From NCBI RefSeq assembly GCF_056712565.1, contig NZ_CM160072.1: a stretch of 64,000 nt of DNA; one strand, written 5' to 3'. Position numbers and translations under genes: made by a program. Below, one piece after another: positions 26,806-43,118 of the stretch (position 1 is its first letter; the number at the start of each line of letters is the position of its first letter). The notes beneath the pieces are model-generated. The model did not search any database. It was not told where the DNA came from and was given only the letters and a program-made list of their open reading frames with translations.

Positions 26806-26830
26806 TGGTCATCAAATGACCAGTTTTTTC
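26805..26830 (+). terminator. Hairpin terminator after ompW
   Basis: ctggtcat-caa-atgaccag followed by T6; overlaps the 3' end of int on the opposite strand. Confidence 0.6.
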
Positions 26831-27942
26831 CATTCCTTACCGCGTGCGTCGTTGTAAATATCGGTCATTTTTTGATTCGAATGGCCCAGCAAAATTTTGG
26901 TATCAACCCCCTGCTCTCTGAACAATCGCTCTGATAAAGATCTCTGCTCATGGAAAGAGGGTGGGGTGCCATTAGCACGCCAGTTGTAATCCACAGAATC
27001 CCGGGCTTTTTTAAATGCAACGGTTAATGTTGCTGGCTTAACCATCCCGCCGCGCTTAGCTGTCCCTTTCGCGTGATGGTGGTGCAATAGCCACGGACTA
27101 AGAACGCAATCGCGGCAGGATGACACCACATCATCTAGGGTGAGATTTAATTTATCGCAACGCAGAGCCAGAGGGATGGCAATCCGGGTTCCTGTTTTTT
27201 GCTGTTCGACATGAAGATAACCATCCCGGATATCCGAAAATTGCATTTTGCAAATATCTGAAAGGCGCTGGCCTGTCATCAGTGCCAGCAGCATACCGCG
27301 CTGTAAAAAGTAACCATCCTTTTCCGCTGCGTTATAAATCATCATCCACTCATCAAAAGTCAGTCGCTGTCTTGATATCCGCACCTGCGGTTTTTTTGCC
27401 GATTCTGCAGGGTTAAAGCCTGGCGGGACATCGCCCGTTTGCTGAGCTTCCCGGAAAACATCGATCAGTACTTTCCTGAAAATTTGTCCCATTCTGTTAT
27501 GTCCTCTGGCCTTGTACTCTTCCAGTACTGATACCACATCTTTTACGGTTATGGCATCTAACGGTCTGGTGCCAAAACGTTCATCAAATACCCTGAGAGG
27601 GGCCGCTTTCTGTTTCAGCGTGTTGAGTTTGATCTCGCCGTTTTCATATCTTTCCTGTTGAATTTTTCTGTAATTATTCAGAAAAATGGTAACGGTTGAT
27701 GAACCGCCGGTGTCACTAATAATTTTCTCCTGCAGACTGAGCATTTGTTCCATTTGCTGCCGGGCAAGACGGCTGTTCGCTTCTGCTGCAATAGTTTCTG
27801 CCAGTTTCTGGTCAATACTGCCGAGACCGTGATTTTTGCCTGTTATGGGATGCCTGTAACGCCAGTAAACTTTGTTATTTCTTTTGTCAAAATACGGAGA
27901 TAATCCCGGAACATCGGTTTTATATTTTCGCGGGCGCGCCAT
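26812..27942 (-). CDS. int: Prophage tyrosine integrase (lambda Int family)
   Basis: 376 aa with tyrosine recombinase C-terminal catalytic region; lies at the prophage end next to ompW. Confidence 0.9.
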   Translation of the reverse strand: MARPRKYKTDVPGLSPYFDKRNNKVYWRYRHPITGKNHGLGSIDQKLAETIAAEANSRLARQQMEQMLSLQEKIISDTGGSSTVTIFLNNYRKIQQERYENGEIKLNTLKQKAAPLRVFDERFGTRPLDAITVKDVVSVLEEYKARGHNRMGQIFRKVLIDVFREAQQTGDVPPGFNPAESAKKPQVRISRQRLTFDEWMMIYNAAEKDGYFLQRGMLLALMTGQRLSDICKMQFSDIRDGYLHVEQQKTGTRIAIPLALRCDKLNLTLDDVVSSCRDCVLSPWLLHHHHAKGTAKRGGMVKPATLTVAFKKARDSVDYNWRANGTPPSFHEQRSLSERLFREQGVDTKILLGHSNQKMTDIYNDARGKEWKKLVI

Positions 27943-28168
27943 CTTCCAGTATCCTCTTCAAAGCAGGGTGATCTGTGGCGATCACCTCCGGCTTGTTTAC
28001 CATTCCGACAAAGCGAGCTTGCGGATCCACTCGCCAGCGTCTTCCAACTTTTTTGGGGAGAGGAAATATCATTCCGGCTTTAGCGTATTTACTTAACGTA
28101 CTCGGAGTAGGGACCGGTTCACTGAATTCCTCCTTTGCCCACTCAGTGAGCAGAATAAGTCTTGCCAT
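27920..28168 (-). CDS. xis: Excisionase / AlpA-like DNA-binding protein
   Basis: 82-aa protein overlapping the int start; ...PLPKKVGRRWRVD... motif typical of Xis family. Confidence 0.7.
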   Translation of the reverse strand: MARLILLTEWAKEEFSEPVPTPSTLSKYAKAGMIFPLPKKVGRRWRVDPQARFVGMVNKPEVIATDHPALKRILEDGAPAKI

Positions 28169-28232
28169 GAGCGTCGTTCGCTAATCATGGTCGCCGCCAC
28201 TATAGCTGGTGGGCAACGACCGGGGTTGAACA

Positions 28233-28775
28233 TTAAAAATCAGCCTGATTTGGGATCAGTTTTTGCCAGATAGCTGAAACGTATTTTGCCTGGTAACGGG
28301 CGTCATCAAGTGCATTATGGCGCTCACCTTCGAATGGAATAGCCGTTCTGGCATCGAAGTCTATGGCTTTCCCCAGCTCAACGATTGTGCGTACATCGCG
28401 ATCGTTGTAGTAACGCCACGGGCAGGGGATCCCCTGCCGTTCGTATGAACGGCGCAAAATCGTGTTGTCGAAGTTGGCTCCATTTCCCCAAACCTGAACA
28501 AAAAATTCACCGGAGTTTTCGTCGATAAATTCCCGCAATTGTAACAGTGCATCATCTAACGGGATTTCATCGGTCATAATGGCAGATTGCGCTTCGCGTG
28601 ATTGCTTAAGCCACCATTTAATGGTGTCCCGATCAATGACTCCGCCAGCAGTTTCCAGATCGATAGTCTTACTAAATTCCGGTCCCATATCTCCGGTTTG
28701 CGGATCGAAAAATATTGCACCTATTGAGATGATCGGGGCATCAGGATTTTTTCCCATGGTTTCAAGGTCGATCAT
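28233..28775 (-). CDS. DnaQ-like 3'-5' exonuclease (DEDDh)
   Basis: 180 aa with Exo I (DLETMG) and Exo III (HNALDDARY) motifs. Confidence 0.75.
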   Translation of the reverse strand: MIDLETMGKNPDAPIISIGAIFFDPQTGDMGPEFSKTIDLETAGGVIDRDTIKWWLKQSREAQSAIMTDEIPLDDALLQLREFIDENSGEFFVQVWGNGANFDNTILRRSYERQGIPCPWRYYNDRDVRTIVELGKAIDFDARTAIPFEGERHNALDDARYQAKYVSAIWQKLIPNQADF

Positions 28776-28808
28776 TAGATGGTCACACGTCCTGCTGGTG
28801 GATGTGAT

Positions 28809-30704
28809 TTAGTGATGACCGTTCACCTTAATTGGGTGATCTGCCGTCTCGCCAGTTTCATTATCGCTATTGTGATGCTGATTGCCGCCAGTGTTCTCCT
28901 TGTGTGGATGTTCAGCGCCTTCCATTTCCTCCGGATCATCTTCCTGAACTTCAACCTGATACTCTTCATCGAATGTTTCTTGGTATGTTGCGTCGCCCAT
29001 CACCGCGCCACAATCAGGACAGTTGCCGCCGCCGGTCTGACCGCAGGCGGTGCAGGCTTTTTCCACTTCCTGGTGCGCCACTGGTTCAGGCTGTTTCGTT
29101 TCTGGCTCGTTTTGTAACGCATTTGGACTGTTTTGTTCCGCTTTTTGGTAGTTCCGTTCCGATTCATGCTGGTTCTGGCTCACAGAATCGCGGGTCTGGA
29201 TCCCCTTAATCCATTTCGGATCATTCGGGTCACTAATCCCTTCAACAAATTCACCACGTGATGCAGCAAGCAACTTATCGGCGTCAGGCTGGCTGATATT
29301 GGCTGCCTGCATAATTTTGTTTACTTCGTCAGCGGTAACTTTTATCGGCTCTGGTTGTTCTGAATCTTCAGCGGTATCTACATTTTGCGGTAAGCCCGTG
29401 TATGTGCCATTTTTTCGGGCAAAATATTCTTCTTTTGTGATTTCAGTGGCGCCAGCAGCCAGTGCCTTATCCAGACCAGAAAGTTTGTTTGCGCGACCGT
29501 ATTTTTCTCCGTCCTTATCTGCGAAGAGGAAATAGAACGGCCCCTCACGCTCTACAGATGGTTCAGCTTCCGGCGCGGTTTCATTTTTTGGGATATCAGA
29601 TACCTCAGTTTCCACTGCATCAGTTTGTGTTTCTGATGACTGGAGAACATCAACAGTGCCCAGGTCTGTTTCTTCATTCTCAAACACGCCCTTTGTCGTC
29701 AGGTATTCGCAGATATATTTGTTCAGTGCTACGGGATCTTTGTGAATGTCGATCGGACGCTCACGGACAAGGCCAAAAATAGTTTGGCGGTCGTAGCGAA
29801 GGGCATCAGGCTGTTTGCGCATTGATGCCGAGATACGCTTCCAGTCTTCGCGGTCGTTGTCGATAACTTCTTTTTTTGCCCAGCGATGGATGCTGCCGTC
29901 AATGTTTCCGGCATCCACATCACCAGGCCAGAGAGCGTAGGCCAGTTCGTCATCCAGTGTTTTCCATGTCTGCTTGTATTCGCGATGAATGGCAGCAATG
30001 ACCGGGCTGATTTTTCCTGTTGAATTTTCAGTGTACTGTTGATTGGCTCTGGCGCGGGCGAGATCAACAACAGACGTGTATTTTCCGGTTTCCTTGCGTT
30101 CACCTTCGCGACGTTTTTTCCAGATGCGCATCTCTGCCTGAATTTCGGGCCATTTAGCACCAGGAATACATTTATGCTTAACCCACCCAATGGCGTGCAA
30201 CTTAAGATCCGGATACATGGCGTTAACTTCTGGCATTTTCATCAACGCTTCAACGATATGTCCGTCGAATGTTGCCATGTCTTCCTGCAACAATTCCTGT
30301 GCGCTAATAACCATATCAACGGTGATGTTTTCACATGTGTCGAACTTAACCATGACAGCGTTCTGTACTTCAGGGGCCAGCTTGTCAAAAGTGACGTTCA
30401 TCGGATCGGATTCAGTCTCGACCGGAACAAAGGAAGCAGACGCCTCATCCCAGCGGTTTTCCTGCATATATTCAGCATCCCAGGAATCGAGGGCTGGGCG
30501 GGGTATACCGGGTTTATCCTCGCAAACAAGAAATTTATAAGCGCAGTCCTGAGCAGCCGGATAATGTTCCAGGAATTGCCAGTGAAATTTTGCGCGGGCG
30601 CGACGTTCATCACCGGCTTCAATGGCAGTGGCTACAGCGACGGCACCTTCTTCCTTTATTGCCTGTTCGTCCGGAATGGCGGCGCAAATAAAGACTTTAC
30701 TCAT
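28809..30704 (-). CDS. Large early-left protein of unknown function, acidic with C-terminal Cys cluster
   Basis: 631-aa ORF with ATG start; C-terminal CTACGQTGGGNCPDCG zinc-ribbon-like motif and a His/acidic tail. Confidence 0.6.
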   Translation of the reverse strand: MSKVFICAAIPDEQAIKEEGAVAVATAIEAGDERRARAKFHWQFLEHYPAAQDCAYKFLVCEDKPGIPRPALDSWDAEYMQENRWDEASASFVPVETESDPMNVTFDKLAPEVQNAVMVKFDTCENITVDMVISAQELLQEDMATFDGHIVEALMKMPEVNAMYPDLKLHAIGWVKHKCIPGAKWPEIQAEMRIWKKRREGERKETGKYTSVVDLARARANQQYTENSTGKISPVIAAIHREYKQTWKTLDDELAYALWPGDVDAGNIDGSIHRWAKKEVIDNDREDWKRISASMRKQPDALRYDRQTIFGLVRERPIDIHKDPVALNKYICEYLTTKGVFENEETDLGTVDVLQSSETQTDAVETEVSDIPKNETAPEAEPSVEREGPFYFLFADKDGEKYGRANKLSGLDKALAAGATEITKEEYFARKNGTYTGLPQNVDTAEDSEQPEPIKVTADEVNKIMQAANISQPDADKLLAASRGEFVEGISDPNDPKWIKGIQTRDSVSQNQHESERNYQKAEQNSPNALQNEPETKQPEPVAHQEVEKACTACGQTGGGNCPDCGAVMGDATYQETFDEEYQVEVQEDDPEEMEGAEHPHKENTGGNQHHNSDNETGETADHPIKVNGHH

Positions 30705-30796
30705 TTTGTTTTACCTCATTACAGATTTAAGGGTGAACAAATCCCTGCCATTGCTGGCATATAAGAATGAAATCGGATGTTTATTACGGAACTGTT

Positions 30797-30988
30797 TTAA
30801 AGACCTGCCGGGATTTCGTTATTATCCTGGTGAATAACTTTATCGACCGGGTAACAGTTACCGGGAATTTTCTGTTCGGTTGCTGCAGTCACACACTCCT
30901 GCATTGTCCTGTGAACACTGACTGCAGTATCAACTGGCTCTCCGGAAACAAGAAAAACTGTCAGAACAAGTGCAAATGCTGTATTCAT
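30797..30988 (-). CDS. Small secreted protein (signal peptide)
   Basis: 63 aa from MNTAFALVLTVFLVSGEP...; AAGGA RBS; 4-bp overlap with the upstream gene. Confidence 0.4.
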   Translation of the reverse strand: MNTAFALVLTVFLVSGEPVDTAVSVHRTMQECVTAATEQKIPGNCYPVDKVIHQDNNEIPAGL

Positions 30989-31173
30989 TGCCAGCATCCT
31001 TTTTGTATCGGACGTAAACGGGCCAACATTGAAAGAATGCATATTTTATTTAATAGCTCCCGTTCGTGTTTTCTCTTGTTAATGGCATCTTCAGTAAATA
31101 CAGGGTTACTGATAGTGACACCAATTTCAAAACAACCTTCAGACGTATTAACGTTTGGTAATAACGTTTCCAT
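30985..31173 (-). CDS. Hypothetical early-left protein
   Basis: 62 aa from METLLPNVNTSEG... with GAGGA RBS; the track ORF is longer. Confidence 0.35.
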   Translation of the reverse strand: METLLPNVNTSEGCFEIGVTISNPVFTEDAINKRKHERELLNKICILSMLARLRPIQKGCWQ

Positions 31174-31738
31174 TATCGCGTCCTCAACAATGAATTTTGT
31201 GATGCGGTGCCTGGTGCTTCCAGGTGACGTTAACCAGTTAACAATTAACGCCGGATACAGAGAATCCACCCATAACACTGTTTTTGGTTTTAACTGTTCC
31301 GCGTGCGCTTAGCCGCATTCACCGCATCACAAAATTCACTTTAAAAAGGGCGGCAGAGCAGTCACGGAGTAAAACTGATACCGCCAAACGTCACCAGAAA
31401 ATTGATAACAGAGGGCGTTGCAGCGGGGTTGTCACTTAAGCGTATGGTCAACCTGACAACCCGGTGTCCTCAACGGTGGAAGGAATAACCCCGCCATACT
31501 TACCGCCGCGCCATTTCGCGGATTGCCACAACCGGAAGCGCACGGTCGACGAAAATTTAACGACAGGCTATCTATGAACCAGCTACCTCGCCGTGCGCTT
31601 TCGCGTTATGGTCTGACTTTTCAGGGAAATATCCTTTCAGTAAACTGTCAGTGCCGGATGCTCACCCGTGTCCGGCGCACGCACTCCACCTCACCCGTGG
31701 AGAACTCCTTAATTACCAACCTTAGCTTCGTTGGTTAG

Positions 31739-31960
31739 CTATTCACGCGGGTATGTAATCATTCTGGCAATGCTTAATGCCGCTGCTTTTTCCAGATTGG
31801 TGATATCCTGCTCCAGAGCGGACAGATTTTCAGCCTGCTTAGCCCTGGCTTCATTGGCCCATTTCAAATCCTGCGCTGCATTAATTTTCTGGCGCATCCA
31901 CTCATAAAGTTCATCATTGGTATAGTCTGGCGCGATGATGACGGGTTCTCGTTTCTGCAT
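31739..31960 (-). CDS. Hypothetical early-left protein
   Basis: 73-aa ORF MQKREPVIIAPDYTNDELYEWMRQKINAAQ... Confidence 0.4.
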   Translation of the reverse strand: MQKREPVIIAPDYTNDELYEWMRQKINAAQDLKWANEARAKQAENLSALEQDITNLEKAAALSIARMITYPRE

Positions 31961-31989
31961 ACTGATTCCTCGCGGTGCTGCTTCGCTTA

Positions 31990-32118
31990 TCAGCCGTTAG
32001 ATTTTGCCGAGCTGGAAAGCGCCTGTTTAAACTCACTGAAGCTGAGAGCTTCTTCGCCTTCGGCAAGGCCTTCGAAGTATTCTTCGTAAGCCTTTTCCAT
32101 GATTGTGTCGAAATCCAT
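31990..32118 (-). CDS. Small acidic protein (Rac YdaG-like position)
   Basis: 42-aa ORF MDFDTIMEKAYEEYFEGLAEGEEALSFSEFKQALSSSAKSNG translated by hand; below the ORF-track cutoff. Confidence 0.35.
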   Translation of the reverse strand: MDFDTIMEKAYEEYFEGLAEGEEALSFSEFKQALSSSAKSNG

Positions 32119-32119
32119 A

Positions 32120-32275
32120 TCACTCACCTGAGTTTCTTTCCAGCCAGCGACGGGCACCATTTTCGGTTTTAAACGTTTTGCTTTTGGTATACGTCATCGC
32201 GGTGAACGTACCGTCCTGGTTGGGGAACACGCCACATACCAGAGATTCGCTGTTGCCAAGATCGATAGTATCCAT
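32120..32275 (-). CDS. YdaF-like small protein
   Basis: 51 aa from MDTIDLGNSESLVCGVFPNQDGTFTAMTYTKSKTFKTENGARRWLERNSGE; position and length fit Rac ydaF; the track ORF is extended 5'. Confidence 0.45.
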   Translation of the reverse strand: MDTIDLGNSESLVCGVFPNQDGTFTAMTYTKSKTFKTENGARRWLERNSGE

Positions 32276-32567
32276 GCTGACCTCATTTCCCCTTAACGCC
32301 GGGGTAGCGGAACAAAAACCTGCTGCATAGTTATTAAAGTTGAACCCTGCCGTCATGTTCTTACGCCTCGGGCTGGCTACTTAACCCCTGACCACTGCCT
32401 GGTAACTAGAAGTATTGCCCTGCATTCTGTGGGGTGGGGAGAGGGAATGAATTAAGTTTAGAAAAATGAACTTTTCAGGTCAATGTTTTTTTATCAAAAC
32501 ATTTTAAGCAGGCAGCTGTTAAGCCATCACCACGATGGCATACAGTTAATCAAATAGATGAGGTCGG

Positions 32568-33206
32568 TTAAATATTTTGTTGAATTTTAAAGCATACGCC
32601 CAATATGCAAGATAGATCATCCAGCATAATTGAAGGGTAGCGAGGATTCGTGGGGACTAAAAGAATATCCGGCCCTTCTATCTCCAGTTTACGAATGACA
32701 GGTGTTGTGGTCCCTTTGGGTAAGGCAAGGACAATATTTCCTGGTTGTACGGTTCGATCGGGATCAACAAAAACTGTTGAACCATTTGGGATGGAAACTC
32801 CCCCACCAGATGTTGACATACTGTCACTCTCTAGAACAACTGCAAAGGTATTGGCCGGGATTTCTCCGACAAGCTGCACACAAGAGGTTATTGAGGAATT
32901 TTTCATATAATCACTCCAGCTTGCTGCCTGCTGAAGTGATAGTAGCGGAACCGTTTTTATCGGCGGTAAAGATAGATCAAGCGAATCACCTGTATTTAAC
33001 TCTCCTCCATTAAGAAGCCAATTTTCGTTTACTTTCAATATTTTTGCCAGTGAACTTATGTAACGCGAGGACGGCGCTCCTCCACCGTTCATCCATTGAC
33101 TTACGGAGCCTTTTGATGCGCCAGTGGCATTGACAAGGTCTTTGCCTTTCAGGTTTAGCGCATGCATACGTTGGGTTATGCGTTCAGATATTGTTTGCTT
33201 GTTCAT
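32568..33206 (-). CDS. CI-type prophage repressor (HTH_XRE + S24 LexA-like peptidase)
   Basis: 212 aa; N-terminal HTH (LKGKDLVNATGASKGSVSQWMNG) and C-terminal S24 domain; divergent from the Cro-like gene. Confidence 0.85.
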   Translation of the reverse strand: MNKQTISERITQRMHALNLKGKDLVNATGASKGSVSQWMNGGGAPSSRYISSLAKILKVNENWLLNGGELNTGDSLDLSLPPIKTVPLLSLQQAASWSDYMKNSSITSCVQLVGEIPANTFAVVLESDSMSTSGGGVSIPNGSTVFVDPDRTVQPGNIVLALPKGTTTPVIRKLEIEGPDILLVPTNPRYPSIMLDDLSCILGVCFKIQQNI

Positions 33207-33297
33207 GTTTTGATTTTAAAACACAGATGGTTTTGTTTCTTGACTTTCTTTGGTTTTGATTATTAAACTTTTGGCGTTCAGTTTTATGGAGCGACTC

Positions 33298-33540
33298 ATG
33301 AAAAAATCAGAAGTATTAGGCTATTTTGGCGGAGTTGTTAAAACAGCCGCAGCTCTAGGAACGTCAAAAACCACAGTCAGCATGTGGGGGGAAGAGGTTC
33401 CGTGGAAATGGGCGTTGCTAATTCAGGCAGTCACTGCCGGGGCGCTCAAATATGAGTTACACATACCGACGGTTGTCATTCCCGGTTCTGATCATAATCC
33501 GCCTTCTAACCAAGGGGGGATTCATGAAAATCAAGCATGA
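33298..33540 (+). CDS. Cro-like HTH regulator (YdaS-type)
   Basis: 80 aa from MKKSEVLGYFGGVVKTAAALGTSKTTVSMWG...; AT-rich operator-like repeats at 33207-33297. Confidence 0.6.
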   Translation: MKKSEVLGYFGGVVKTAAALGTSKTTVSMWGEEVPWKWALLIQAVTAGALKYELHIPTVVIPGSDHNPPSNQGGIHENQA

Positions 33541-33949
33541 ACACATCCGCATGGCGATGAATGCCTGGGCGCGTCCTGATGGCGAAAAAGTTCCGGCAGC
33601 TGGAATAACCCAGGCTTATTTTGAGTTGGGTATGACGTTTCCTGAACTGTACGACGACAGCCATCCGGAAGCCCTGGCTCGCAATACCCAGAAAATTTTC
33701 CGCTGGATAGAGAAAGACACCCCTGATGCAGTTGAAAAAATTCAGGCGTTGTTACCAGCGATCGAAAAGGCAATGCCACCTTTGCTGGTGGCCAGAATGC
33801 GCAGCCACAGTTCAGCTTATTTTCGGGAGCTGGTGGAGACGCGGGAGCGACTGGTGAGAGACGCTGATGATTTTGTCGCAGTGGCAATCGCCGGTTTCAA
33901 TCAGATGAACCGTGGTGGCCCGGCAGGAAATGCTGTGGCAGTACATTGA
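33524..33949 (+). CDS. YdaT-like (CII-like) regulatory protein
   Basis: 141 aa from MKIKHEHIRMAMNAWARPDGEK...; N-terminus recalls Rac YdaT. Confidence 0.55.
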   Translation: MKIKHEHIRMAMNAWARPDGEKVPAAGITQAYFELGMTFPELYDDSHPEALARNTQKIFRWIEKDTPDAVEKIQALLPAIEKAMPPLLVARMRSHSSAYFRELVETRERLVRDADDFVAVAIAGFNQMNRGGPAGNAVAVH

Positions 33950-35685: not shown

Positions 35686-36708
35686 ATGCCCTGTATTTCG
35701 CTGTGGTATAATAGTTGCGCAATTGATACAAGGGAGCGTTACATCGTGAAAATTGTTTTCGAGGTTAATGGAAAGAAAGTTCCACTAAAATCTTTAAAAT
35801 ACATAAGCAAAAAAGATCAACTCGAAGTAATGAAAAACTGGTTCTTTGAAAACTTTGAAGATCCGGCAAATGCTTGTCCGTATGAAAGTAGAGAAGGTGG
35901 CTATGCTTACATATATGGCGGGCCGTATGATGCGAGCGAAGAACTACAATCCATCTTCGGTCAATATGTTAAATCTGAGTATATTGAGGAATTAGTAGAT
36001 GAATTACAAACACAATGTTTTGACTGGTCTGGAAACTCAAATAATATAGATGATTGGTACGATGATGATATCTACGACGCTGTAACGTCTTCCGGTAATC
36101 CGTATTTAAAATTCATTGATAATATCGATAAAATAAAAAAACTTGCAAAAGATAAAACTGAACAACAGCAAAAAAACCACTTGCTTAGTTTGCTCTACAC
36201 GAATGTTATTACAGCTTTGGAAACGCTTTATGTTGAGCTATTCATTAATTCTATAGAGAAAGATGATGTCTACATAGCCAATTGTATAGAAAAAGGTAAG
36301 ACTGAATTTAAAGTAAGCAAAGATATTGCTGCGTTGCCTTTCAAGGGTGAACCCATCGAGAAAATTAGGGGAGAGCTAATCAGGTCAATCAAGGAACACT
36401 TGATCAGTGCAAGCTGGCATAGCACTAAAAAGGTAATCGACCGCTATGAAGCTACATTCGATATAAAAGTACAAAAAGACTGTCCGATAGAAGCTATTGA
36501 ATTGGCAACCCTCAATCGAAATCACTTAGTGCATCGTGGTGGAAAGGATAAAGAAGGGAACCTCGTAGTGATTACAGACCAGGATCTTGAAACGCTGATT
36601 GAAAATGCATCGAACCTGGCAATTATGCTCTACAACAGTTTAAATGTAGCAACGAATAAAACCACCATTTTGCAACCAGATGACAAACCGTTCATTCATG
36701 AATTTTAA
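35686..36708 (+). CDS. AT-rich cargo gene 1: protein with HEPN-like R-N-x3-H motif near the C-terminus
   Basis: AAGGAGG RBS 6 nt before ATG 35686 (alternative GTG at 35746); strongly AT-rich body; motif LNRNHLVHRGG. Confidence 0.55.
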   Translation: MPCISLWYNSCAIDTRERYIVKIVFEVNGKKVPLKSLKYISKKDQLEVMKNWFFENFEDPANACPYESREGGYAYIYGGPYDASEELQSIFGQYVKSEYIEELVDELQTQCFDWSGNSNNIDDWYDDDIYDAVTSSGNPYLKFIDNIDKIKKLAKDKTEQQQKNHLLSLLYTNVITALETLYVELFINSIEKDDVYIANCIEKGKTEFKVSKDIAALPFKGEPIEKIRGELIRSIKEHLISASWHSTKKVIDRYEATFDIKVQKDCPIEAIELATLNRNHLVHRGGKDKEGNLVVITDQDLETLIENASNLAIMLYNSLNVATNKTTILQPDDKPFIHEF

Positions 36709-36723
36709 TAGCGCAGGTCATAC

Positions 36724-37725
36724 ATGGATATTCGCACACGAAAGACAAAATTTTTAGAGTCGTTAGATTCAACTGAAGTGATACGCAAAGCAGTAAGTCT
36801 CGCTATAGATTGCATTATTGATAATCATAATAGTAATGAAGATACCCCCTTAGTTATTACCAGCTATGATGATCTCTGTAGAATCCAGGTGCTAAATTAT
36901 GTACAGGAGTTTTGCGAAGCTGCATTCCCTGATATGGATGAATATTACTTTAGTCCTAACATACTTCGCATCAACGGCAAGACTAGTGAAGAAGCTTGTA
37001 TTAACTTAATTAAACTCTTAAGAAGTACAAAAGGCATGCTATTCTGGTCCGATGCCCCATCGTGGTTCGCTAGCCTCCCCGACGGATTATTCCATGTTGT
37101 TAACATTGATCAAAAAATCGTTACTCGCGGCCTTAATAAGAAAAACTCTAAGCCGACAATAATCAATAAAGATTACAGTGTAGATACACTACTATCAGAG
37201 CTATTTTTGAATGGCGCACACATGGAGCAACCCAACGTACACAACGTTTCTGAGGGAAACATGAAGTTCTATGATGAATGCCATGCTGGATTAATCAGAC
37301 CAATACCCGCTCCAATAGGCGCGTCATACGATGAAGAGATCACAATTAATTCTCCAGATTGGCAAAAGCTCGCGTGTGTAGCTTTACGCCGCTATCAGTC
37401 GAAGGAATGTCATGACGGAATGCAATGGGATACAACCGATCATGGTTGGACTGATGTAATCGCGTATCCATTCGTCGAAGAAATACAATCAATGGATAAT
37501 AGTGGTTATCGACAATGTTTAGTTGGGCTGGTCACAATAAACAATTCAAATGCAAATTCTCCGTACCTATCTACCGTTTGGATACATCCATTTTATCGCA
37601 GGAGAGGGTTATTAAGTAAGTTATGGCCAAAATTACAAGAGTTATATGGAAGTAACTTCGAAATTGAGCGACCTAATGAAAATATGAAAGCATTTCTGAA
37701 AAGTGCGAAACACGCAGATTACTAA
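36724..37725 (+). CDS. AT-rich cargo gene 2: protein with GNAT-like C-terminal motif
   Basis: 333 aa, 15 nt after gene 1; C-terminal ...LSTVWIHPFYRRRGLLSKLWPKL... resembles GNAT acetyl-CoA motif A. Confidence 0.5.
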   Translation: MDIRTRKTKFLESLDSTEVIRKAVSLAIDCIIDNHNSNEDTPLVITSYDDLCRIQVLNYVQEFCEAAFPDMDEYYFSPNILRINGKTSEEACINLIKLLRSTKGMLFWSDAPSWFASLPDGLFHVVNIDQKIVTRGLNKKNSKPTIINKDYSVDTLLSELFLNGAHMEQPNVHNVSEGNMKFYDECHAGLIRPIPAPIGASYDEEITINSPDWQKLACVALRRYQSKECHDGMQWDTTDHGWTDVIAYPFVEEIQSMDNSGYRQCLVGLVTINNSNANSPYLSTVWIHPFYRRRGLLSKLWPKLQELYGSNFEIERPNENMKAFLKSAKHADY

Positions 37726-42868: not shown

Positions 42869-42944
42869 GGCCCTTTAGCTCAGTGGTGAGAGCGAGCGAC
42901 TCATAATCGCCAGGTCGCTGGTTCAAATCCAGCAAGGGCCACCA
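42869..42944 (+). tRNA. Phage tRNA with anticodon CAU (Ile2/Met; ileZ-like)
   Basis: 76-nt cloverleaf, acceptor ggccctt/aagggcc, anticodon loop ct-CAT-aa, T-loop GGTTCAAATCC, encoded CCA. Confidence 0.8.
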
Positions 42945-42951
42945 TCACATA

Positions 42952-43028
42952 CCGCCATTAGCTCATCAGGAAAGAGCGCCAGCCTTCGAAGCTGGTTGCG
43001 CGGAGTTCGGGTCCCCGAAGGCGGTCCA
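42952..43028 (+). tRNA. Phage tRNA-Arg (UCG), slightly degenerate (argN-like)
   Basis: Anticodon stem ccagc/gctgg with loop ct-TCG-aa; D-stem gctc/gagc; one acceptor and one T-stem mismatch; encoded CCA. Confidence 0.55.
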
Positions 43029-43041
43029 TTATCTGTATCCT

Positions 43042-43118
43042 GCGTTGTTAGCTCAGCCGGACAGAGCAATTGCCTTCTAAGCAATCGGTCACTGGTTCGA
43101 ATCCAGTACAACGCGCCA
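43042..43118 (+). tRNA. Phage tRNA-Arg (UCU) (argO-like)
   Basis: Perfect 7-bp acceptor gcgttgt/acaacgc, anticodon loop ct-TCT-aa, T-loop GGTTCGAATCC, encoded CCA. Confidence 0.8.

What the first reader, a model, noticed from the sequence alone, without database searches (positions are those of the whole stretch)
28233..30704. Early-left module: DnaQ-like exonuclease plus uncharacterised 631-aa protein in the exo/bet position
Where lambda carries exo-bet-gam, this prophage has a DEDDh 3'-5' exonuclease and a 631-aa acidic protein with a C-terminal CxxC...CPDC Zn-ribbon-like motif and a His-rich tail. No RecT/Bet or RecE/Exo homolog is evident. The large protein could be a recombination or anti-host factor, but I cannot assign a fold.
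Basis: inference. Interest (0 to 1): 0.4.

Follow-up and report, generated by a model that had tools for sequence, protein, structure and literature searches.

The report
One prophage exonuclease gene, split by stop
The "two genes" are the two halves of a single, very common E. coli prophage gene (a RecE-like scaffold carrying a 3'-5' exonuclease) that a rare one-base mutation has cut in two, so the finding is ordinary, although nobody has yet shown what the gene does.

Summary
Both ORFs exist as described, but they lie in the same reading frame. Only one TAA (window 28809-28811, minus strand) and 11 codons separate them. In the closest genomes that codon is GAA (Glu632), and the locus is a single 823-aa CDS (RefSeq WP_000048434.1, "exonuclease" / "3'-5' exonuclease").

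The TAA allele is real but rare. It is identical in five independent SRA assemblies and absent from all 5,426 complete RefSeq E. coli genomes.

The gene is the full-length orthologue of the K-12 Qin pseudogene ydfE, the last gene of a dicB/DicF-type early-left operon. The "uncharacterised 631-aa protein" is homologous to the non-catalytic N-terminal region of RecE (exonuclease VIII). The shared parts are the head domain, a helical middle module, the CxxC...CPDC zinc ribbon and the His/acidic tail.

RecE's PD-(D/E)XK nuclease is replaced here by a DexA/Rv2179c-type DEDDh 3'-5' exonuclease, and no RecT is present. In relatives the same scaffold is fused to a PD-(D/E)XK nuclease, a Rad52-fold domain or DEDDh. 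In some phages it is encoded near a stand-alone DEDDh gene.

Most likely the intact protein is a scaffold-tethered 3'-end DNA exonuclease, and this copy is a nonsense-disrupted allele. The family is known, the function is untested, and interest is low to moderate.

The parts
28233..30704 (-). Whole interrupted gene: 823 codons plus the final stop. It is a full-length orthologue of K-12 ydfE (RecE-like scaffold plus DEDDh exonuclease).
   Evidence: A single-frame translation has one internal stop. The identical DNA, apart from one base, is annotated as one CDS, WP_000048434.1, in HS13-1, UTI89, S88 and others. Residues 1-256 are 98% identical to K-12 YdfE.
28809..28811 (-). Premature TAA stop at codon 632; the relatives have GAA (Glu). 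The changed base is window 28811 (A here, C in the relatives, on the + strand).
   Evidence: None of the 3,351 genomes that hold this junction has the TAA. The TAA allele is identical in 5 Logan assemblies.
30411..30704 (-). Residues 1-98: alpha/beta head domain (Pfam YdfE_N), homologous to the head of RecE.
   Evidence: AlphaFold2 pLDDT about 95. hhalign of the YdfE-type head profile against the RecE-type head profile gives probability 95.2%, E 2.7e-8. Precomputed Pfam hit PF27430 YdfE_N.
30087..30377 (-). Residues 110-206: helical part of the first folded block.
   Evidence: AlphaFold2 pLDDT 92-97, helices 111-206. dN/dS is 0.07-0.14 for residues 1-345.
29670..29984 (-). Residues 241-345: helical 'mid' module, the part most widely shared across the family, RecE included.
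   Evidence: pLDDT about 95. It was found by phmmer in most of the full-length representatives, whatever their head type or effector type. It aligns to RecE residues 278-360.
29400..29552 (-). Residues 385-435: small beta-beta-alpha-beta-alpha module (GPFYF...GRANK...EITKEEY). K-12 RecE lacks it.
   Evidence: pLDDT 85-95. It is present in many YdfE_N-type relatives that carry a Rad52-fold or PD-(D/E)XK C-terminus.
29208..29339 (-). Residues 456-499: two helices plus the conserved motif DKLLAASRGEFVEGISDPNDPKW, shared with RecE.
   Evidence: Near-identical in RecE residues 455-480. Found in most family members. pLDDT 65-76.
29010..29054 (-). Residues 551-565: CxxC-x8-CxxC zinc-ribbon-like motif (CTACGQTGGGNCPDC).
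   Evidence: Regex search. The same motif is in RecE at residues 517-531 and in 12 of the 149 family representatives scanned. pLDDT is only 57-68.
28812..29000 (-). Residues 569-631: disordered acidic, His-rich linker, shared with RecE. In intact alleles it joins the scaffold to the nuclease.
   Evidence: pLDDT below 50. Residues 575-631 have pI 4.4 and 7 His. It aligns to RecE residues 535-592.
28776..28808 (-). Eleven codons (ITSTSRTCDHL) between the TAA and the ATG of the 180-aa ORF. They are part of the linker in intact alleles.
   Evidence: The intact relatives read ...NGHHEITSTSRTCDHLMIDLET....
28233..28775 (-). Residues 644-823 of the intact protein: DEDDh 3'-5' exonuclease domain (DexA / Rv2179c type). 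In this allele it is a stand-alone 180-aa ORF.
27920..28168 (-). Excisionase, the gene immediately downstream; the integrase at 26812-27942 follows it.
   Evidence: Pfam Exc, Arm-DNA-bind_1 and Phage_integrase; RefSeq annotation.
30797..31173 (-). The upstream genes of the same operon: a ydfD-like DUF1482 gene (30797-30988) and dicB (30985-31173).
   Evidence: Pfam DUF1482 and DicB; RefSeq annotation of the identical DNA.
31348..31399 (-). DicF small RNA, in the same operon. It confirms a Qin-type gene order: ydfA, ydfB, ydfC, dicF, dicB, ydfD, ydfE.
   Evidence: Rfam RF00039, 76.7 bits against a gathering score of 48; K-12 Qin annotation.

Best explanation
Shown: window 28233-30704 (minus strand) is one gene, the full-length orthologue of the K-12 Qin pseudogene ydfE. 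It is the last gene before xis-int in a dicB/DicF-type early-left operon of a lambdoid prophage at ompW. Intact alleles encode an 823-aa protein built from:
- a RecE-like, non-catalytic scaffold (alpha/beta head, helical domains, a conserved DKLLAA...DPNDPKW motif and a CxxC...CxxC zinc ribbon);
- a disordered acidic, His-rich linker of about 70 residues;
- a DexA/Rv2179c-type DEDDh 3'-5' exonuclease domain, in the place where RecE has its PD-(D/E)XK 5'-3' nuclease.

In this genome a G-to-T change on the coding strand turns Glu632 (GAA) into TAA. That detaches the scaffold (631 aa) from the nuclease (180 aa). The allele is real but rare.

Inferred: the intact protein uses the scaffold to reach a DNA-end, recombination or replication intermediate, or a host partner. 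The tethered DEDDh domain then trims 3' ends of DNA. It does this without a partner annealase. In this allele the function is probably lost or much reduced, because the nuclease ORF has no good ribosome-binding site of its own and could only be made by weak re-initiation 36 nt after the stop.
For: One gene:
- Same frame, one TAA.
- PHROG 2082 (823 positions) matches the 631-aa ORF at positions 1-631 and the 180-aa ORF at 644-823.
- The TAA is the single base difference from HS13-1 over 26.6 kb, and the relatives read GAA.
- RefSeq annotates a single 823-aa CDS.
- All three sections of the gene are under purifying selection: dN/dS 0.07-0.14 for residues 1-345, 0.36-0.54 for residues 346-642, about 0.14 for the DEDDh domain.

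Allele status:
- 0 of 3,351 junction-bearing complete genomes carry the TAA.
- The allele is 100% identical in 5 Logan assemblies, and one of those contigs was seen in 16 samples.

Identity:
- 98% identical to K-12 YdfE over residues 1-256.
- Pfam YdfE_N and YdfE_C.
- RecE homology: BLASTP E 3e-62; the NCBIfam exonuclease VIII model matches at its positions 271-600; head-to-head hhalign probability 95%; the zinc ribbon is shared.
- DEDDh domain.

Link between the scaffold and DNA-end enzymes:
- Among representatives of at least 450 aa, the same scaffold is fused to DEDDh in 7, to PD-(D/E)XK in 13, and to a domain of about 290 aa in 16.
- In 2 of 4 scaffold-only relatives examined, a stand-alone Rv2179c-like exonuclease gene lies two genes upstream.

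No annealase partner:
- None is found beside the DEDDh variants in 6 further contexts, including a Rac-like chimera that has lost recT, and none is detected in this prophage.

Known biology:
- Full-length RecE enhances linear-linear recombination, and its N-terminal domain has no known function (PMC11611040).
Against: - No experiment bears on this protein. Its substrate (DNA or RNA), polarity and partners are all inferred from homology.
- The founding member of the Pfam family, Rv2179c, and its relative RNase AS are exoribonucleases (PDB descriptions).
- The AlphaFold2 model of the DEDDh domain is of low confidence (pLDDT 45-70), because the alignment held few DEDDh sequences.
- Stand-alone DEDDh genes occur naturally beside scaffold-only proteins. 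The split allele could therefore keep some function if the 180-aa ORF is translated.
- The pairing energy of -5.0 kcal/mol is stronger than at 83% of internal ATGs, so re-initiation is not excluded.
Confidence: 0.78

Rival explanations
1. One reading: these are two independent, co-evolved genes: a large accessory or anti-host protein plus a separate DnaQ-like exonuclease, forming a two-gene early-left module by design.
For: Both ORFs start with ATG and are called as separate genes in assemblies that carry this allele. In some other phages a scaffold-only protein and a stand-alone Rv2179c-like exonuclease really are separate genes in one operon.
Against: The ORFs share a frame and differ from a single 823-codon CDS by one base. 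Every complete RefSeq genome that holds the junction lacks the stop. The 11 codons between them are conserved linker sequence in the intact alleles. The natural two-gene versions have the opposite gene order, with a small gene in between.
Confidence: 0.03
2. The intact protein is mainly a prophage-encoded anti-phage defence nuclease of the HREX type. Its DexA-like DEDDh domain would degrade the modified (5hmC) DNA of superinfecting T-even phages, and the nonsense allele would have lost that protection.
For: An E. coli DexA homologue, EcD, degrades 5hmC-containing DNA and T4 genomic DNA but not unmodified dsDNA. It protects against T4, and E. coli is the commonest bacterial source of DexA homologues (PMC12153337). 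This domain is a DexA homologue. The operon also encodes DicB. No annealase partner is present.
Against: EcD's sequence could not be recovered, so its closeness to this domain is unknown. DexA Trp152, which is needed for activity on the T4 genome, aligns to a Tyr here, whereas stand-alone homologues keep the Trp. The residue aligned with DexA Asp90 is still Asp, whereas EcD has Ala at that position. The scaffold is shared with recombination enzymes. PADLOC reports only a generic CRISPR-associated DEDDh match.
Confidence: 0.2
3. The DEDDh domain acts on RNA, not DNA, as a 3'-5' exoribonuclease. It might, for example, process or degrade transcripts of the dicB/DicF operon or host RNAs.
For: The Pfam family is named after the exoribonuclease Rv2179c. 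The closest structures include RNase T, RNase AS, ERI1 and oligoribonuclease. NCBI names many copies '3'-5' exoribonuclease'. DicF, a processed small RNA, is encoded in the same operon.
Against: The scaffold is shared with DNA enzymes: the RecE nuclease and a Rad52-fold domain. DexA and Cap18 score as high as the RNases. RNase T itself also acts on DNA, as the PDB titles show. The gene occupies the recombination slot next to xis-int.
Confidence: 0.1
4. The split allele still works as a two-part system. The 631-aa scaffold and a separately translated 180-aa nuclease would associate non-covalently, so the mutation would be neutral.
For: A scaffold-only gene and a stand-alone DEDDh gene occur in one operon in other phages. 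The 180-aa ORF keeps all five catalytic residues and starts exactly at the domain boundary, MIDLET. An ATG lies 36 nt after the stop, with -5.0 kcal/mol anti-Shine-Dalgarno pairing. The allele persists in several isolates.
Against: The AGGA element sits 14 nt from the ATG, which is a poor spacing, and 77% of real starts pair more strongly. The allele is absent from 5,426 complete genomes. The same prophage has other decayed genes, such as a frameshifted lysozyme, which is consistent with neutral decay. Nothing shows that the two halves bind each other.
Confidence: 0.15
5. The stop codon is a sequencing or assembly error in the window.
For: It is a single-base difference from otherwise identical genomes, and no complete RefSeq genome has it.
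Against: Five assemblies from different SRA runs have exactly the same 2,472-nt sequence with TAA, and one of those contigs recurs in 16 samples. The exact 631-aa product is on record from 9-12 contigs.
Confidence: 0.02

Closest known systems
RecE / exonuclease VIII of the Rac prophage (E. coli K-12 b1350, 866 aa)
   Same: It holds the same slot in a lambdoid early-left operon. The non-catalytic N-terminal region is homologous: head domain (hhalign probability 95%), mid module, the DKLLAA...DPNDPKW motif, the CxxC...CPDC zinc ribbon and the acidic His-rich linker (E 3e-62).
   Different: The catalytic domain is a DEDDh 3'-5' exonuclease rather than a PD-(D/E)XK 5'-3' exonuclease. There is no recT downstream. 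The protein scores 278 bits against an equivalog cut-off of 1269. The first ~260 residues are of the YdfE_N type, not the Exonuc_VIII (PF06630) type.
YdfE of the K-12 Qin cryptic prophage (b1577, pseudogene) and RefSeq WP_000048434.1 'exonuclease' / '3'-5' exonuclease'
   Same: 98% identical over residues 1-256, in the same operon order ydfA, ydfB, ydfC, dicF, dicB, ydfD, ydfE. The window differs from WP_000048434.1's gene by one base.
   Different: K-12's copy is cut after residue 256 by IS2E. This copy is cut at codon 632 by a nonsense mutation, and the nuclease ORF is left intact downstream.
T4 DexA (PDB 8KEL) and its E. coli homologue EcD ('HREX', PMC12153337)
   Different: DexA and EcD are stand-alone proteins of about 190-230 aa, whereas this domain is the C-terminus of an 823-aa scaffold protein. 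DexA Trp152 aligns to Tyr here. Specificity for 5hmC is untested.
Rv2179c / RNase AS family (Pfam PF16473)
   Different: The mycobacterial proteins are stand-alone exoribonucleases. Here the domain sits in a recombination-type context, and its substrate is unknown.
Lambda Red (Exo-Bet-Gam)
   Same: Only the position in the genome: the early-left operon between the immunity region and xis-int.
   Different: No homologue of Exo, Bet or Gam was detected. The expected polarity is the opposite (3'-5'), and there is no annealase.

Membership tests
RecE / exodeoxyribonuclease VIII (NCBIfam NF007259 equivalog) | Full-length match at or above the curated cut-off of 1269 bits | tested here: not met
   278 bits, matching only model positions 271-600. 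K-12 RecE scores 1830 bits.
RecE / exodeoxyribonuclease VIII | C-terminal PD-(D/E)XK 5'-3' nuclease domain (DUF3799 / PF12684 type) | tested here: not met
   Neither ORF hits PF12684. The C-terminus is PF16473 DEDDh. Relatives that do have the PD-(D/E)XK domain are detected with the same tools.
RecE / exodeoxyribonuclease VIII | Homologous non-catalytic N-terminal region (head, middle, zinc ribbon, linker) | tested here: met
   BLASTP E 3e-62 over residues 262-627; head-profile hhalign probability 95.2%, E 2.7e-8; identical zinc-ribbon pattern.
RecE / exodeoxyribonuclease VIII | Adjacent recT annealase partner | tested here: not met
   xis follows directly. No single-strand annealing protein was detected in the prophage, nor beside DEDDh variants in 6 other contexts.
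YdfE family (Pfam PF27430 YdfE_N, PF27432 YdfE_C) | Matches to both Pfam models; orthology to K-12 ydfE | tested here: met
   Precomputed Pfam hits on the exact 631-aa product and on relatives. 98% identity to K-12 YdfE residues 1-256, with the same gene order. The two models are absent from the local Pfam copy, so I could not rerun them myself.
DEDDh exonucleases, Rv2179c-like (PF16473) | Score above the Pfam gathering threshold | tested here: met
   226.4 bits against 27, E 2.5e-67, covering model positions 4-177 of 177.
DEDDh exonucleases, Rv2179c-like (PF16473) | The five catalytic residues: D-x-E, D, and H-x4-D | tested here: met
   D3/E5 (MIDLET), D103 (NFD) and H153/D158 (HNALDD), aligned with DexA and stand-alone homologues.
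DEDDh exonucleases, Rv2179c-like (PF16473) | Metal-dependent 3'-5' exonuclease activity | not testable with these tools
   Needs a biochemical assay.
HREX (DexA / EcD exonucleases that recognise 5hmC DNA; PMC12153337) | Homology to DexA | tested here: met
   [not shown]
HREX (DexA / EcD) | A Trp equivalent to DexA W152, required for activity on the T4 genome | tested here: not met
   W152 aligns to Tyr123 of the 180-aa ORF (RYYNDRD). Stand-alone homologues keep the Trp (FWNERD). Another Trp lies three residues upstream, so the structural equivalence is not settled.
HREX (DexA / EcD) | An Asp equivalent to D169, and loss of the tetramer-forming Asp90 (Ala in EcD) | tested here: inconclusive
   The region around D169 is not reliably aligned. 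The residue aligned with D90 is still Asp (D75). EcD's sequence was not recovered.
HREX (DexA / EcD) | Selective degradation of 5hmC DNA and protection against T4 | not testable with these tools
   Needs nuclease and plaque assays.
Lambda Red / RecET-type two-component recombinase | A 5'-3' exonuclease plus a single-strand annealing protein encoded together | tested here: not met
   No Exo/YqaJ, Bet, RecT, Erf or Sak hit among the neighbours or the other early genes.

The most novel reading that the evidence does not exclude
The YdfE/RecE N-terminal scaffold could be a general adaptor. It would bring interchangeable DNA-end enzymes to one still-unidentified target, such as a host protein or a DNA structure. 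The interchangeable enzymes are a PD-(D/E)XK 5'-3' nuclease, a DEDDh 3'-5' nuclease (fused, or encoded nearby as a separate gene) and a Rad52-fold annealase. A near-full-length copy of the DEDDh version is present in about 65% of complete E. coli genomes, and no annealase gene was found beside it in the seven loci examined. It would then carry out an annealase-independent job that has not been described. Examples would be destroying the 3' ends of superinfecting or modified phage DNA, or of host recombination intermediates.
Probability: 0.3. Interest if true: 0.55.

Novelty: already known. Interest (0 to 1): 0.3.

Why it matters
For this window it matters mainly as a correction. An apparent new two-gene module is one known prophage gene carrying a rare nonsense mutation, and the "orphan" protein is the RecE-type scaffold.

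Beyond that, the family is unusually common: 3,536 of 5,426 complete E. coli genomes carry a near-full-length copy. Yet nobody has characterised it.

The domain-swap pattern seen here is a concrete handle on an old open question, namely what the large N-terminal region of RecE is for. That region affects linear-linear recombineering (PMC11611040). The pattern is one scaffold combined with a 5'-3' nuclease, a 3'-5' nuclease or a Rad52-fold domain, plus natural split versions. Natural alleles such as E632* offer ready-made separation-of-function material.

Tried and rejected
- Local Pfam scan of the 631-aa ORF: no family. The relevant models, PF27430 and PF27432, are newer than the local copy.
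- Sequence search of solved structures: only the DEDDh part hits anything.
- PADLOC: only a generic CRISPR-associated DEDDh match at E 1.7e-5.
- Recovering the EcD sequence from its published primers failed:
  - the 23-mer gave 0 hits, and I later realised it included vector bases;
  - the start 17-mer found other MIDTET proteins but not EcD;
  - the corrected 20-mer gave one chance hit.
- Promoter and terminator scan of 27500-33600: counts no higher than in shuffled sequence.
- Sequence searches of the Rad52-like C-terminal domain of relatives against Pfam, PHROGs and the PDB: negative or circular. Only the fold comparison was informative.
- One literature search was wasted because 'RecE' matched 'receptor'. 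Searches for ydfE, PPompW and Rv2179c-like found no functional study of this protein.
- Programmed readthrough or recoding was considered and rejected. The stop is not conserved in any relative.
Full report
**Observation.**
- The descriptive details hold. The large ORF is acidic (pI 4.7), carries CTACGQTGGGNCPDC at residues 551-565, and ends in a tail with 7 His in 57 residues.
- The small ORF is a DEDDh exonuclease (Pfam PF16473 Rv2179c-like, E 2.5e-67), with D3, E5, D103, H153 and D158 in place.

- Translating 28233-30704 in one frame gives ...VNGHH*ITSTSRTCDHLMIDLET..., that is 631 codons, one TAA, 11 codons and 180 codons, 823 in all.
- PHROG 2082 has 823 positions. It matches the large ORF at positions 1-631 and the small one at 644-823.

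**One gene, one base changed.**
- The best matches among complete E. coli genomes differ from the window at a single position, 28811. These include HS13-1 and a set of extraintestinal and avian pathogenic strains such as UTI89, S88 and APEC O1.
- At that position the relatives read GAA (Glu632) where the window reads TAA.
- Against HS13-1 this is the only difference across window 22233-48859.
- In those genomes the locus is one 823-aa CDS, WP_000048434.1 or WP_000048435.1, named "exonuclease" or "3'-5' exonuclease" and not flagged as a pseudogene. The phages HannyBb, mEp460 and Evi also carry it as one CDS.
- A 71-nt probe centred on the stop found the junction in 3,351 of 5,426 complete genomes. 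None reached 99% identity, so none has the TAA.
- The stop is nevertheless not an error. The exact 631-aa product is on record from 9-12 contigs.
- Five Logan assemblies from different sequencing runs are identical to the window over all 2,472 nt, TAA included. One of those contigs was seen in 16 samples.
- It is therefore a rare lineage allele, E632*.

**Is the whole frame really coding?** Comparison of the intact allele with three phage copies shows purifying selection in every section:
- dN/dS 0.07-0.14 for residues 1-345;
- 0.36-0.54 for the largely disordered residues 346-642;
- about 0.14 for the DEDDh part.

This also argues against the antisense ORFs listed on the plus strand. Relatives are mosaic. 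Against phage Evi, dS jumps from 0.12 in the scaffold to 1.08 in the nuclease domain.

**What the gene is.**
- Residues 1-256 are 98% identical to K-12 YdfE, the Qin-prophage pseudogene that is cut by IS2E.
- The neighbours reproduce the Qin order: ydfA, ydfB, ydfC, DicF (Rfam 76.7 bits, window 31348-31399), dicB, ydfD, then this gene, then xis and int.
- The prophage sits at ompW.
- Precomputed Pfam hits on the exact product are PF27430 YdfE_N and PF27432 YdfE_C. The local, older Pfam copy finds nothing.

**The 631-aa part is a RecE-type scaffold.**
- Residues 262-627 align to K-12 RecE residues 278-592 (E 3e-62). The alignment is near-identical across DKLLAASRGEFV(E/D)GISDPNDPKW, the zinc ribbon and the acidic His-rich tail.
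- NCBI's exonuclease VIII model matches residues 246-623 at model positions 271-600, far below its cut-off (278 against 1269 bits).
- A profile of YdfE-type heads aligns to a profile of RecE-type heads with 95.2% probability, E 2.7e-8.
- The statement "no RecE homolog is evident" is therefore wrong for the scaffold and right for the nuclease. RecE's PD-(D/E)XK domain is absent.

A review states that the N-terminal domain of RecE has no known function. It also says that full-length RecE is better than the nuclease domain alone at linear-linear recombination (PMC11611040).

**Structure.** An AlphaFold2 model of the intact protein (46-sequence alignment) shows the following:
- folded blocks at residues 1-206 (alpha/beta head plus helices), 241-345 (helical) and 385-435 (small beta-beta-alpha-beta-alpha), all at pLDDT 85-97;
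- moderate confidence for residues 456-499;
- low confidence for the zinc ribbon;
- long disordered linkers at 207-237, 346-383, 439-455, 500-548 and 569-637.

**The family is modular.** A search of 1.84 billion cluster representatives with residues 1-631 found 247 clusters. Mapping the modules with phmmer showed three layers:
- two alternative heads, YdfE_N or RecE_N (PF06630);
- a shared middle module and shared motifs;
- alternative C-termini: DEDDh in 7 representatives, PD-(D/E)XK in 13, a domain of about 290 aa in 16, other types in a few, or none.

So the same scaffold is joined to a 5'-3' nuclease, a 3'-5' nuclease or an annealase-like domain. This is the strongest evidence, although indirect, that the scaffold works in DNA-end or recombination transactions.

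**Gene neighbourhoods.**
- DEDDh variants sit just before xis-int and have no annealase gene beside them. This holds in this window, HannyBb, mEp460, Evi, P0242 (at icd), P0122 and P0128.
- P0128 is telling. It has the Rac RecE scaffold joined to DEDDh, in a Rac-like arm (SieB, KilR, YdaE) that lacks recT.
- No annealase was found elsewhere in this prophage.
- Two of the four scaffold-only relatives examined have a stand-alone Rv2179c-like exonuclease gene of 191-193 aa two genes upstream. The other two do not.
- Fused and unfused versions of scaffold plus DEDDh thus both exist in nature. That supports a functional link between them. It also means a split allele is not necessarily dead.

**Consequence of E632*.**
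- The scaffold is made without its nuclease.
- The nuclease ORF starts exactly at the domain boundary, at an ATG 36 nt after the stop.
- Its best anti-Shine-Dalgarno pairing is -5.0 kcal/mol. That is weaker than at 77% of annotated starts in this prophage and stronger than at 83% of internal ATGs. The AGGA element lies 14 nt upstream, which is a poor spacing.
- I infer loss or strong reduction of the tethered activity, with low-level re-initiation possible.
- The same prophage copy has other damaged genes, such as a frameshifted lysozyme. That fits neutral decay.

**Function.**
- Shown: the architecture, the homologies, the intact catalytic residues, and the allele's status.
- Inferred: the intact protein is a scaffold-tethered 3'-5' exonuclease acting on DNA ends, expressed from the early-left operon, and working without an annealase.

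Three readings remain open.
2. **HREX-like defence.**
   - An E. coli DexA homologue, EcD, degrades 5hmC DNA and protects against T4 (PMC12153337).
   - Against this, DexA Trp152 aligns to Tyr here and the Asp90 equivalent is retained.
   - EcD's sequence could not be retrieved for comparison.
3. **An RNA substrate**, as for Rv2179c and RNase AS.

I rank them in that order, but no computation available here separates them.

**Verdict.** The finding is a known, very common and functionally uncharacterised prophage gene carrying a rare nonsense mutation. It is not a new two-gene module. The interest lies in the family rather than in this locus.

Noticed in passing
window 31348-31399 (-): A DicF small RNA (Rfam RF00039, 76.7 bits). 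The whole left arm reproduces the K-12 Qin dicB operon, but here inside a prophage that still has head, tail and lysis genes.
   Followed up: partly
window 32568-33206 (-): The CI-like repressor ORF is 212 aa, with a helix-turn-helix and an S24 peptidase domain (PHROG 4 matches residues 2-210). RefSeq annotates only the C-terminal 113 aa of the identical DNA in HS13-1, as 'LexA family protein'. The public start site is probably mis-called.
   Followed up: partly
window 35746-36708 and 36724-37725 (+): Two adjacent genes in a low-GC stretch (0.39 against about 0.49 nearby) match only PHROGs of unknown function (17908 and 16994). They lie between a Ren-like exclusion gene and hokD. They look like a moron, possibly a defence pair.
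   Followed up: no
window ~45498-46032 (+) and ~44094-44312 (+): In the HS13-1 copy the lysozyme gene is flagged as frameshifted and a DUF1737 gene is a fragment. That copy is identical to the window across this stretch. The prophage is therefore decaying in places other than the exonuclease gene.
   Followed up: no
[not shown]
   Followed up: partly
L046:5001-7418 (P0128): A natural chimera. It has the Rac-type RecE N-terminal ~450 residues and zinc ribbon joined to the DEDDh domain, in a Rac-like arm (SieB, KilR, YdaE) that has no recT. The nuclease domain and recT seem to have been exchanged as one block.
   Followed up: partly
L048:3176-6151 and L049:3209-6043: Scaffold-only RecE_N-type proteins (716 and 680 aa) are preceded by a stand-alone Rv2179c-like exonuclease gene (193 and 191 aa) and a small gene of 72-80 aa that overlaps the scaffold's start. 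A small overlapping gene of 77-81 aa was present upstream in all four scaffold-only contexts. A DUF1627 gene lay just downstream in three of them.
   Followed up: partly
window 28233-30704 compared with phage Evi (L039:3001-5481): Synonymous divergence jumps from 0.12 in the scaffold to 1.08 in the DEDDh domain. This indicates a recombination breakpoint in or near the disordered linker.
   Followed up: partly
window 42869-43118 (+): A cluster of three tRNA genes (Ile, Arg, Arg) downstream of a DNA methyltransferase gene, taken from the RefSeq annotation of the identical HS13-1 DNA.
   Followed up: no
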